Positions 18,053 through 18,904 of a stretch of DNA of 26,372 nt are shown one piece after another. This DNA is from Bryobacteraceae bacterium. GTDB taxonomy: Bacteria > Acidobacteriota > Terriglobia > Bryobacterales > Bryobacteraceae. The first letter of the stretch is position 1. Every line of letters starts with the position of its first letter. Made by a program: the position numbers and the translations under genes. The stretch covers positions 1 to 26,372 of the forward strand of contig JAYVRS010000328.1 of the NCBI GenBank assembly GCA_043776185.1, in the 5' to 3' direction. The notes beneath the pieces were generated by a model. It made no database searches, was not told where the DNA came from, and was given only the letters and a program-made list of their open reading frames with translations.

Positions 18053-18904
18053 CTAGTAACTCCGTAAGTGCTGGAGTAACTCGCTCTCGTGCGCAGTGAC
18101 TGGAGCCGCCTTAAACGCGGGGCTGGGTAGAGTGGCCTCCCAGCGGACGCCCGGCAAGAAGACGGCGACAAAGTCCCATAGGATGCGGCCTTGCACCAAG
18201 CTCGCTTTCCCCCGTACGGGCGTTGTTTCGGCTCGGAGGAGTGGCTGCCAGAAGCTGGCGAGCAAAAGCTGGGGGTCCCAGAAATGGCGCACGCGCGGGT
18301 CGGCGGCGCGGGCCATGGTTTCTAGCGACGGCGCTTCGGTGTCGCTATCCAGCACTGGTTCCCAAACGAGAAACGCCTTCACGTCCCGCTGCGGCAACTG
18401 GTGCAGCACAGATTCGATTGCAGAGGCCCCCTGCAAACAAGTGCTTCAAGTGGGGGAGAGCAGCGCTATTACACGCGTCTCGTTTATCGAAGCGTTGAAG
18501 CTGGTGCGGAGTTGATTGAGGTCAATGAGCGTGCGGAGCGGCAACGCTGATACCCCGCCCTTTACCGCGGATGGCGAGGCTGAGCCCGCCAAACGATTGG
18601 CTGACCATTGCGGAAACGCCCCCAGCGCCACCACGGCGCCCAGCGACAGCCATACCAGGGCCTGAGCCCATAGCGGCCGGGCCATCGCGCAACTGCGCTT
18701 CCGGTACAAAGAATACAACGCATAGCCCACCAGGGCCAGGGACAAGGCCAGCAGATAGGGGCGCGCTTCCGTAAGCCAAACGCCACCAATTGAGAGACCG
18801 CCCGCTAACAGAATCGCGGGCAGCGGCAAGCAACAACTCACCATCGCCACCACACTCGCCAGTGCGGCCAACGCGGATACCGAGGCTCGTTTGGGCTCAT
18901 TCAT
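18053..18904 (-). CDS. Putative selenoprotein: MerT-like membrane domain fused to a thioredoxin-like UxxC domain (283 aa, Sec at residue 153)
   Basis: ORFs 18446..18967 and 18053..18436 are in the same frame, separated only by TGA at 18448-18446: ...VIALLSPT-TGA-STCLQGASA. The N-terminus has MerT-like VSCCLP, RPY and YRKRSC. Start placed at MNEPK (18904). Confidence 0.8.
18405..18445 (-). promoter_or_regulatory. Candidate bacterial SECIS element
   Basis: Directly 3' of the TGA: lower stem AGCAC/GTGCT, upper stem TTGCAG/CTGCAA and a G-rich apical loop (GGGGCCT) 16-22 nt after the UGA. Confidence 0.6.

What the first reader, a model, noticed from the sequence alone, without database searches (positions are those of the whole stretch)
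18053..18904. Hidden selenoprotein: MerT-like transporter fused to a UxxC thioredoxin-like domain
Seen: an in-frame TGA (18448-18446) falls exactly where the first Cys of a thioredoxin CxxC would be (beta-strand VIALLSPT, then U-S-T-C, then helix LQGASAIESVL). The frame continues 130 codons with no good independent start, and a SECIS-like hairpin follows. The N-terminal three TM helices resemble MerT, including the CC pair. Established: bacterial Sec is inserted at UGA with an immediately 3' SECIS, and UxxC is a common selenoprotein motif. Inference: a membrane metal- or thiol-handling selenoprotein with its redox domain probably periplasmic. No merR or merA is nearby, so mercury need not be the substrate. 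Standard annotation would split it into two hypotheticals.
Basis: partly seen in the sequence, partly recalled or inferred. Interest (0 to 1): 0.8.

Follow-up and report, generated by a model that had tools for sequence, protein, structure and literature searches.

The report
Selenoprotein fused to MerT-like transporter
The apparent stop codon inside this gene almost certainly encodes selenocysteine, so the gene makes one membrane protein: a mercury-transporter-like (MerT-like) part joined to an outward-facing, thioredoxin-shaped selenium domain from a family that public annotation cuts in two and no catalogue I checked lists.

Summary

**Gene.** Window 18904..18053 (-) is one 283-codon gene with an in-frame TGA at codon 153.

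**Evidence that the TGA encodes Sec:**
- The same column is TGA in 13 of 16 order-level homologs and in 23 of 29 phylum-level loci examined.
- It is Cys (SPT-C-x-x-C) in about 70 other homologs.
- Protein conservation runs across the codon.
- An 8-9 bp hairpin starts 9 nt after the UGA. It is conserved in 35 Sec-form genes, has compensatory changes at 6 of its 9 pairs, and is lost in three homologs without Sec.
- The genome holds tRNA-Sec, a SelD that is itself Sec-containing, and the SECIS-binding end of SelB. SelA was not found (MAG 77% complete).

**Domains.** The N-terminal three-helix domain, with invariant Cys24-Cys25-x-Pro27, belongs to the MerT/MerC superfamily. The C-terminal domain is a confident thioredoxin fold (pLDDT 96-98). 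Its nearest solved structures are TlpA/ResA/DsbE/CcmG and GPx, and it matches no Pfam or NCBIfam model.

**Function (inferred).** The domain acts as a periplasmic selenol/thiol head working with a MerT-type conduit for a thiophilic metal. MerA is mostly not found in carrier genomes, so classic mercury reduction is unlikely.

**Earlier findings.** The scan has met this family before on other genomes, as two adjacent genes. This window holds the fused form.

The parts
18053..18904 (-). Whole coding sequence: 283 codons plus TAG stop (18055-18053). The start is ATG 18904.
   Evidence: The ATG at 18904 (M-N-E-P-K-R-A-S) lines up with the N-termini of homologs. The longer public call from 18964 adds 20 unconserved residues.
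18590..18904 (-). MerT/MerC-like membrane domain (residues 1-105), with helices 6-23/28-40 (kinked at C-C-L-P), 45-68 and 78-96.
   Evidence: AF2 model. Pfam MerT 16.7-17.8 bits and MerC 16.7-19 bits, NCBIfam MerTP_fusion 25-28 bits, all below cut-offs. 11 of 23 aligned N-domains hit MerT at E<=0.01, best 2.9e-11.
18830..18835 (-). Vicinal Cys24-Cys25 in the first membrane helix, followed by Pro27.
   Evidence: C24, C25 and P27 are invariant in the alignment of 23 N-domains. Codons were read.
18689..18691 (-). Single Cys72 in the basic loop R-K-R-S-C-A-M-A-R between helices 2 and 3 (predicted cytoplasmic).
   Evidence: The loop carries four Arg/Lys residues (positive-inside inference). Classical MerT has two Cys here.
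18542..18589 (-). Low-confidence linker (residues 106-121) between the membrane and thioredoxin-like domains.
   Evidence: pLDDT 61-68 for residues 101-120.
18056..18541 (-). Thioredoxin-fold domain (residues 122-283), predicted periplasmic.
   Evidence: pLDDT 96-98. Foldseek and VIA-align give Z 11-12 to DsbE/DsbF/ResA/TlpA/CcmG/DipZ-C and GPx. No Pfam or NCBIfam hit. Stand-alone homologs carry their own signal anchor or a lipobox.
18446..18448 (-). UGA codon 153, read as selenocysteine (first position of U-S-T-C).
18437..18439 (-). Cys156, the partner residue of the UxxC motif.
   Evidence: Cys in 100% of 90 aligned domains.
18416..18438 (-). SECIS-like hairpin: G18438-C18416, then 8 pairs 18436-18429 with 18425-18418, and apical loop G-G-C at 18428-18426. 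It starts 9 nt after the UGA.
   Evidence: RNAalifold finds it unprompted. Pair counts on 13 and on 35 sequences are.

Best explanation
SHOWN. This is one gene for a 283-residue inner-membrane selenoprotein. UGA-153 is decoded as selenocysteine, with a SECIS hairpin 9 nt downstream to recruit SelB. The product has a MerT/MerC-type three-helix membrane domain with a Cys24-Cys25 pair in helix 1 and one Cys in the cytoplasmic loop. Its third helix leads straight into a thioredoxin-fold domain whose active site is Sec153-x-x-Cys156.

INFERRED. That domain lies in the periplasm. It acts as the outward-facing selenol/thiol head of the transporter and sits where MerP or the HMA domain sits in MerT-MerP and MerTP systems. 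It either binds a thiophilic metal species itself and passes it by ligand exchange to the Cys-Cys pair, or keeps the transporter's exposed thiols reduced so that they can bind metal. The metal is not identified. Because MerA is usually not found in carrier genomes, the pathway is not the classic import-and-reduce mercury route.
For: Sec decoding:
- The TGA is in the same column in 13/16 order-level and 23/29 phylum-level loci.
- 46 of 58 phylum matches carry exactly one in-frame TGA.
- Cys replaces it in about 70 site-spanning homologs. Among 90 aligned domains, 35 have U and 55 have C, and Cys156 is present in 100%.
- Public gene calls break at exactly this point: fragments end at residue 152 or begin at 156-158.
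- The SECIS hairpin is 91.4% paired, against 38-59% when slid. 6 of 9 pairs show compensatory changes, and 0/500 shuffles reach the observed score.
- The Gly-Ala codons at the apical loop read GGG GCC in 12 of the 13 order-level Sec genes; this fixed choice and the hairpin are lost in the three non-Sec homologs.
- tRNA-Sec, Sec-containing SelD and the SelB wing domains are present.
- SelB scores over its cut-off in 5/5 Sec-form carriers tested.
- TGA is an ordinary stop for 8 of 27 complete long ORFs in the window.

Architecture and location:
- AF2 mean pLDDT is 87.8, and the fold matches are.
- Separate-gene homologs have a signal anchor or lipobox.
- The fused form recurs in 4 genera searched and in 15 truncated representative clusters.

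Metal theme:
- MerT scores over the Pfam cut-off in fused relatives P0025, P0064 and P0038.
- Single polypeptides exist with MerT + HMA + this domain (P0038, P0077).
- Relatives have Cys-rich linkers and an extra Cys-Cys pair.
- In relatives, a MerR-family regulator with Cys82/Cys117/Cys132 and an HMA gene sit directly upstream of the pair.
Against: - No selenium has been measured, and SelA was not found in this 77%-complete MAG.
- This copy's own MerT score is under the cut-off, and it has one loop Cys rather than two.
- The window holds no metal regulator or partner. The neighbours are housekeeping genes: tpiA, FKBP, rlmN, yidC.
- Outside the order, most phylum-level members of the Trx-like family showed no detectable MerT-like neighbour by BLAST.
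- MerA scores over its cut-off in only 1 of 5 near-complete carriers, and on another contig there. Importing Hg(II) without reducing it would be harmful.
- The nearest solved folds are reductases and peroxidases, not metallochaperones.
- The domain-docking test on a Cys homolog gave no answer.
Confidence: 0.6

Rival explanations
1. A transmembrane reductant relay or envelope antioxidant, unrelated to metal transport. The small Cys-bearing membrane domain would pass reducing equivalents from the cytoplasm to the periplasmic UxxC domain. That is the CcdA/DsbD arrangement, and in M. tuberculosis DipZ a membrane module is fused to a Trx-like domain. The UxxC domain would then reduce disulfides or peroxides in the envelope.
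For: The closest solved structures are extracytoplasmic reductases (DsbE/DsbF, ResA, TlpA, CcmG), the DipZ C-terminal domain and glutathione peroxidases, at Z 10.6-12.3. UxxC is the usual redox motif of thioredoxin-fold selenoproteins (Table 1 of PMC9312934). In one relative a cytoplasmic thioredoxin-like DUF2703 gene sits in the same operon, giving the cytoplasm-membrane-periplasm layout of a relay. MerA is mostly not found in carriers.
Against: The membrane domain is homologous to MerT/MerC, not to CcdA/DsbD. HMA domains are fused into the same polypeptide in relatives. A MerR-type regulator and an HMA gene are neighbours in relatives. Three homologs have lost both U and C yet keep the rest of the signature, which fits a binding or scaffold role as well as a redox one.
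Confidence: 0.27
2. The TGA is a true stop, so the locus is two genes or a gene broken by a nonsense mutation (a pseudogene).
For: Table 11 gives two ORFs, and a TTG 9 nt after the TGA could start the second. The hairpin in this single sequence folds no better than shuffles. SelA was not found.
Against: The TGA column is conserved across dozens of genomes, with conserved residues immediately on both sides and Cys in the other homologs. The hairpin covaries. The candidate TTG start lies inside the hairpin stem, and the second ORF would lack the strand and active site of its own fold.
Confidence: 0.02
3. The organism reads TGA as a standard amino acid (Trp or Gly) throughout, so this is an ordinary sense codon.
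For: One public homolog is recorded with Trp at the site (P0011).
Against: TGA ends 8 of 27 complete long ORFs in this window and ends several homologous genes. The genome carries tRNA-Sec and Sec-specific factors. The aligned residue in other homologs is Cys, not Trp or Gly.
Confidence: 0.01

Closest known systems
MerT-MerP of proteobacterial mer operons, and MerTP fusion proteins (NCBIfam NF033556)
   Same: A three-helix membrane protein with a vicinal Cys-Cys pair followed by Pro in helix 1 and Cys in the cytoplasmic loop. A periplasmic partner or C-terminal domain carries an x-x-spaced thiol pair. In relatives, a MerR-family regulator sits upstream.
   Different: The partner domain is a thioredoxin fold, not the ferredoxin-like HMA fold. 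Its first ligand is Sec. There is only one loop Cys. This copy scores 17-28 bits against cut-offs of 32.9 and 180. There is no merR, merP or merA in the window, and MerA is mostly not found in carrier genomes.
Previously reported MerT-family selenoproteins (a 'putative mercuric transport protein' in Table 1 of PMC9312934; Cys-Sec dipeptide forms in bioRxiv 10.1101/2022.07.06.499078)
   Same: A MerT-related membrane protein that contains selenocysteine.
   Different: The preprint describes those proteins as having a CU motif in a MerT family protein. Here the membrane pair is Cys-Cys, and Sec lies about 130 residues later in a fused thioredoxin-fold domain.
Extracytoplasmic thioredoxin-fold reductases TlpA/ResA/CcmG/DsbE/DsbF and their Sec-containing relatives (the thiol:disulfide interchange, DsbA-like and DsbG-like selenoproteins listed in PMC9312934)
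   Same: Membrane-anchored or exported thioredoxin fold with a U/CxxC at the start of helix 1. VIA-align Z 11-12, rmsd 2.5-3.2 A over about 120-128 residues.
   Different: Sequence identity is only 7-15%. None of their Pfam models hits. The family has its own signature (F136, R144, S-P-T-U/C-x-x-C, W181, D188, D202, R204, W209-D210, W243-D244, W255). It is genetically tied to a MerT-like protein rather than to cytochrome maturation genes.
DipZ of Mycobacterium tuberculosis (membrane thiol-disulfide transporter fused to a C-terminal thioredoxin-like domain)
   Same: An overall design of a Cys-bearing membrane module fused to an outward-facing Trx-like domain. The C-terminal domains superpose at Z 11.2-11.3.
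   Different: The DipZ membrane part is of the CcdA/DsbD type (from my own knowledge, not tested here), not the three-helix MerT type. DipZ has no Sec.
Glutathione peroxidases
   Same: A thioredoxin-derived fold with Sec at the N-terminus of the first helix. Z 10.6-11.3 over up to 142 residues.
   Different: GPx uses U-x-x-T and has no CxxC partner in that position. Identity is 4-9%. Whether the conserved W-D pairs mimic the GPx Trp-Asn is only my reading of the alignment, not a tested superposition.

Membership tests
Bacterial selenoprotein (SelB/SECIS-dependent UGA decoding) | In-frame UGA aligned with Cys in homologs, with conservation on both sides | tested here: met
   among 90 aligned domains 35 have U and 55 have C, with flanking S-P-T and Cys156 conserved.
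Bacterial selenoprotein (SelB/SECIS-dependent UGA decoding) | Stem-loop immediately 3' of the UGA with G in the apical loop | tested here: met
   A 9-pair hairpin starts 9 nt after the UGA, with loop G-G-C. 6/9 pairs are compensatory, and it is 91.4% paired against 38-59% when slid. It is lost in non-Sec homologs. SelB binding itself is not testable here.
Bacterial selenoprotein (SelB/SECIS-dependent UGA decoding) | Genome encodes selA, selB, selC and selD | tested here: inconclusive
   selC was found, selD at 366 bits with its own U, and the SelB wing_2/wing_3 domains on a contig-end fragment. selA was not found (best 25-26 bits), but the MAG is 77% complete.
Bacterial selenoprotein (SelB/SECIS-dependent UGA decoding) | Selenium physically present in the protein | not testable with these tools
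   This needs 75Se labelling or mass spectrometry.
MerT (Pfam PF02411) / Mer transporter superfamily | Profile score at or above the curated cut-off | tested here: not met
   This copy scores 16.7-17.8 bits against 32.9 for MerT and 16.7-19 against 27.6 for MerC. Fused relatives do pass: P0025 40.3, P0064 35.5, P0038 34.9. I therefore file it as MerT-like, not as MerT.
MerT (Pfam PF02411) / Mer transporter superfamily | Three membrane helices with a vicinal Cys-Cys pair in helix 1 | tested here: met
   AF2 helices 6-40 (kinked), 45-68 and 78-96. C24, C25 and P27 are invariant.
MerT (Pfam PF02411) / Mer transporter superfamily | Second Cys pair in the cytoplasmic loop between helices 2 and 3 | tested here: not met
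   This copy and most close relatives have only Cys72. Two loop Cys occur in P0025, P0064, P0038 and P0077.
MerT (Pfam PF02411) / Mer transporter superfamily | Transports Hg(II) and works with MerA | tested here: inconclusive
   Transport is not testable here. No MerA scores over the cut-off in this genome, and in only 1 of 5 near-complete carriers.
Thioredoxin-fold superfamily, TlpA/ResA-like extracytoplasmic branch | Thioredoxin fold with the redox motif at the N-terminus of helix 1 | tested here: met
   pLDDT 96-98. Strand 143-149, then U153-x-x-C156, then helix 154-168. Z 11-12 to family members.
Thioredoxin-fold superfamily, TlpA/ResA-like extracytoplasmic branch | Match to the family's sequence models (Thioredoxin_2/_8, AhpC-TSA, Redoxin) | tested here: not met
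   There is no Pfam or NCBIfam hit for residues 120-283. The nearest Atlas and AFDB clusters are 'hypothetical' or 'uncharacterized'.
Thioredoxin-fold superfamily, TlpA/ResA-like extracytoplasmic branch | Extracytoplasmic location | tested here: inconclusive
   Inferred from the basic loop 68-76, from MerT-type topology, and from the signal anchors or lipobox of stand-alone homologs. No experimental topology is available.

The most novel reading that the evidence does not exclude
Soil and sediment Acidobacteriota use a selenolate-bearing thioredoxin-fold domain as a new kind of periplasmic metallochaperone. It would take the place of MerP on a MerT-type conduit, in a MerA-independent pathway for taking up or sequestering a thiophilic metal. 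That would be a direct, previously unrecognised coupling of selenium use to envelope metal handling.
Probability: 0.3. Interest if true: 0.8.

Novelty: new variant of a known kind. Interest (0 to 1): 0.62.

Why it matters
- Thioredoxin-fold UxxC selenoproteins are a known kind, but this family matches no Pfam or NCBIfam model. It is not recognisable among the 87 families tabulated in the 2022 review (PMC9312934).
- Public data cut the family at the TGA: 15 representative clusters end at L-L-S-P-T, and dozens begin just after it. A widespread acidobacterial selenoprotein is therefore invisible to standard annotation and to selenoproteome counts.
- The fusion in this window works as a Rosetta stone. 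It shows that the MerT-like protein and the selenoprotein act as one unit, and it fixes the selenoprotein's side of the membrane.
- If the metal role holds, this is a reductase-free, selenium-dependent way of handling mercury-like metals in sediments. That bears on metal cycling and on why these bacteria invest in selenium.

Tried and rejected
- **Folding the single-sequence hairpin** gave z 0.67 against shuffles, which is uninformative in G+C-rich DNA. I replaced it with comparative analysis.
I did not resend it by any route.
- **The same question on the natural fused Cys homolog P0004** returned 'no answer' (score 0.02). This is neither support nor evidence against docking.
- **Conserved-neighbour search** over 16 loci found nothing beyond the MerT-like/Trx-like pair; no other family is shared by more than 3 loci.
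- **The promoter/terminator scan** found nothing useful.
- **Rfam** has no family in the window.
- **The search for homologous proteins** (word-indexed) returned only 3 hits, and **search for related loci** only 3 loci. The exhaustive representative search and the genome searches carried the analysis.
- **Sequencing-run search** found no RNA runs that hold the locus, only sediment DNA runs that may be its source, so there is no expression evidence.
- **Testing whether Cys forms are confined to genomes without Sec machinery** failed as an idea: 5/5 Cys-form carriers also have SelB.
- **Literature searches** for a MerT-linked thioredoxin-like selenoprotein found only the CU-type MerT selenoproteins. 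I cannot exclude that the review's 'Redoxin family protein (UxxC, no domain)' or 'OS_HP4' is this family, because their sequences could not be fetched.

Full report
**1. The observation**

- The minus-strand frame from ATG 18904 to TAG 18055-18053 is open for 283 codons, apart from one TGA at 18448-18446 (codon 153) in the context V-I-A-L-L-S-P-T-U-S-T-C-L-Q-G-A-S-A.
- Under table 11 the locus falls into a 173-aa ORF ending at that TGA and a 127-aa ORF starting at a TTG 9 nt later.
- The only public gene call for this DNA is the truncated 172-aa piece.

**2. Is the TGA a selenocysteine codon? Five independent lines say yes.**

(a) Conservation of the codon.
- A six-frame search of 60 relatives found homologs in 20 genomes besides this one. 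In an alignment of 16 of their loci, 13 have TGA in exactly this column, within L-L-S-P-T-U-x-x-C-L-(Q/R)-G-A-S-A.
- In a sample of 250 further genomes of the phylum, 45 carry the domain. 46 of 58 matches contain exactly one in-frame TGA.
- In the 29 loci I read, 23 have S-P-T-U-x-x-C and 6 have S-P-T-C-x-x-C.
- One of these genomes, G084 (locus L058), is unpublished. Without it the count is 22 of 28, and I left it out of alignment A3 and out of the signature.

(b) Cys homologs.
- The exhaustive search of 1.84 billion representatives gave 1087 hits.
- About 70 site-spanning hits carry C-x-x-C at the site.
- In a 90-sequence domain alignment the column is U in 35 and C in 55, and Cys156 is invariant.

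(c) The annotation signature of a hidden selenoprotein.
- Many representatives end at query residue 152 or begin at 156-158.
- 15 of them are MerT-like proteins that stop at ...L-L-S-P-T.

(d) SECIS.
- RNAalifold, unprompted, predicts a hairpin starting 9 nt after the UGA. In the window it is 18438..18416, with apical loop G-G-C at 18428-18426.
- On 35 Sec-form genes, 91.4% of cells pair, against 38-59% when the partner is slid by 1-3 columns. 6 of 9 pairs show compensatory changes, and no shuffle out of 500 reaches the observed covariation.
- One covarying pair links an amino-acid change (CAG Gln / CGG Arg) to a synonymous Ser codon change (TCT / TCC). That is hard to explain by protein selection alone.
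- The three homologs that lack Sec have also lost the hairpin and the otherwise fixed GGG-GCC codons.

(e) Machinery.
- The genome has a tRNA-Sec and a SelD at 366 bits whose active site reads G-U-A-S-K.
- It also has, on a fragment cut off by a contig end, the SelB winged-helix domains 2 and 3 that bind SECIS.
- SelA was not found. The MAG is 77% complete in 1162 contigs, so this is not evidence of absence.
- SelB scores over its cut-off in 5 of 5 Sec-form carriers tested.
- TGA is a normal stop for 8 of 27 complete long ORFs in the window, which excludes a genome-wide recoding.

**3. Anatomy**

- The AlphaFold2 model built on a 135-row alignment has mean pLDDT 87.8, and 96-98 across residues 121-283.
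- Residues 6-40 form a helix kinked at C24-C25-L-P27. Residues 45-68 and 78-96 form two more membrane helices.
- C24, C25, P27 and P98 are invariant in 23 aligned N-domains.
- This copy scores below the curated cut-offs for MerT, MerC and MerTP. However, 11 of the 23 N-domains hit MerT (best E 2.9e-11) and 6 hit MerC. Fused relatives exceed the MerT cut-off. I therefore call the domain MerT-like.
- The loop between helices 2 and 3 (R-K-R-S-C72-A-M-A-R) is strongly basic and has one Cys, whereas classical MerT has two.
- The C-terminal domain is a thioredoxin fold with U153 at the strand-to-helix turn.
  - Foldseek and VIA-align place it level (Z 10.6-12.3) with DsbE/DsbF, ResA, TlpA, CcmG, the DipZ C-terminal domain and glutathione peroxidases, at 4-15% identity.
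  - It hits no Pfam or NCBIfam model.
  - Its nearest ESM Atlas and AlphaFold-DB clusters are unnamed.
- The family signature is F136, N137, R144, S-P-T-U/C-x-x-C, G159, W181, P183, D188, D202, R204, W209-D210, W243-D244, W255, P260.

**4. Location of the domain (inference)**

- The basic N-terminus and the basic 68-76 loop put both on the cytoplasmic side, so the chain leaves helix 3 towards the periplasm.
- Where the thioredoxin-like protein is a separate gene, it starts with its own signal anchor, and in one case a lipobox (L-L-L-S-A-C).
- In the fused forms, helix 3 of the MerT-like part replaces that anchor.

**5. Fusion and context**

- In the order-level relatives the selenoprotein gene always directly follows a MerT-like gene. 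The two are fused in this window, in the same-genus MAG (72% identity, titled 'Bryobacterales bacterium') and in three other genera.
- Fusions with Cys forms are also common (P0004, P0025, P0064).
- Further out in the phylum, most members showed no BLAST-detectable MerT-like neighbour. The link is therefore strong in this clade but not universal.
- No other neighbour is conserved.
- In the window the gene sits among housekeeping genes: tpiA, an unassigned membrane protein, a divergent FKBP isomerase, rlmN, an R3H protein, yidC and yidD.
- In one complete relative the pair is preceded, with overlapping ends, by a MerR-family regulator carrying Cys82, Cys117 and Cys132 and by a DUF2703 thioredoxin-like gene. 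In another relative it is preceded by an HMA-domain gene.
- Some long relatives are MerT + HMA + this domain in one chain.
- Linkers of P0025 and P0064 are Cys-rich, and several homologs have an extra Cys-Cys in the insert before the W-D strand.
- The gene is patchy: it was found in 2 of 8 genomes searched in its genus.

**6. Function**

What is shown is the selenoprotein, its two domains and their genetic coupling. The rest is inference.

- The metal reading rests on three points:
  - the only known role of the MerT/MerC superfamily is metal transport;
  - HMA domains are fused in the same chain, and there are extra Cys motifs;
  - MerR and HMA genes neighbour the pair in relatives.
- The evidence against a classic mercury route is that no MerA scores over the cut-off in this genome. 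Only 1 of 5 near-complete carriers has one, and it lies on another contig.
- The main rival is a DipZ/CcdA-style reductant relay or an envelope peroxidase. The fold neighbours and the UxxC motif support it.
- The two readings overlap, because the domain may keep the transporter's periplasmic thiols reduced. I put about 0.6 on the metal-linked reading and about 0.27 on a metal-independent redox role.

**7. Comparison and novelty**

- The literature describes the known MerT selenoproteins as having a CU motif in a MerT family protein (bioRxiv 10.1101/2022.07.06.499078). The 2022 review lists a 'putative mercuric transport protein' selenoprotein (PMC9312934). Neither describes a Sec in a thioredoxin-fold domain attached to MerT.
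- The review's 87 families include several thioredoxin-fold UxxC entries. None is recognisably this one, but two unnamed entries could not be checked.
- Earlier notes of this scan reported the same family on other genomes as two adjacent genes, sometimes in a MerR-led four-gene operon. I reached the same features independently and saw one such operon.
- What this window adds is the fused form, which ties the two parts together physically and fixes the topology.

**8. Verdict**

- It is a new variant of a known kind: a thioredoxin-fold UxxC selenoprotein from an uncatalogued family, fused to a MerT-like transporter.
- Interest is 0.62. It is high for selenoproteome and metal-handling specialists, and tempered by the unknown substrate and by earlier sightings within this scan.

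Noticed in passing
L021, L028, L029 (relatives G048, G013, G025): Three homologs of the thioredoxin-like domain have lost both the Sec/Cys and the partner Cys (E-K-R-S, R-P-E-S, D-P-Q-A). They keep most of the family signature, so they look like redox-dead paralogs. They have also lost the SECIS hairpin.
   Followed up: partly
L018, L020, L022 and protein P0004: Many homologs carry an extra vicinal Cys-Cys (P-D-C-C / G-C-C) in the insert just before the conserved W-D strand. 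This is a motif typical of Hg-binding sites. The window's copy lacks it.
   Followed up: no
L041:7174-7614 (-), relative G020: A MerR-family regulator with Cys82, Cys117 and Cys132 heads a four-gene operon with overlapping gene ends: MerR, a DUF2703 thioredoxin-like gene, the MerT-like gene and the Sec thioredoxin-like gene. The spacing of the first two Cys matches Hg-type MerR as I recall it, but the third is 6 residues further along.
   Followed up: partly
Protein P0011 (public representative): One public homolog is recorded with Trp at the Sec position (L-S-P-T-W-A-V-C). Its gene call was presumably made under a TGA=Trp code, which is another way this family gets mis-annotated.
   Followed up: no
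G000:C261:5394-6317 (+): This genome's selenophosphate synthetase SelD is itself a selenoprotein (G-U-A-S-K), so standard annotation will truncate or split it too.
   Followed up: yes
window:22986-23657 (-): This is a 223-aa ORF upstream of yidC. The YidD domain fills only residues 144-208, and the N-terminal 140 or so residues are unassigned. The start may be over-extended, or another small gene may be read in the same frame.
   Followed up: no
window:9564-13374 (-): A 967-aa CHAT-domain protein (caspase-like protease family) sits directly next to a TPR-repeat protein. The pair is unrelated to the finding.
   Followed up: no
window:14420-16054 (+): A 544-aa ORF matches only the C-terminal half of the copper amine oxidase enzyme domain (42 bits).
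   Followed up: no
Genus-level genomes G001-G007: The fused gene was found in only 2 of 8 genomes searched in its genus (this one and G004), although the flanking housekeeping genes are shared with G004. It behaves as an accessory gene.
   Followed up: partly
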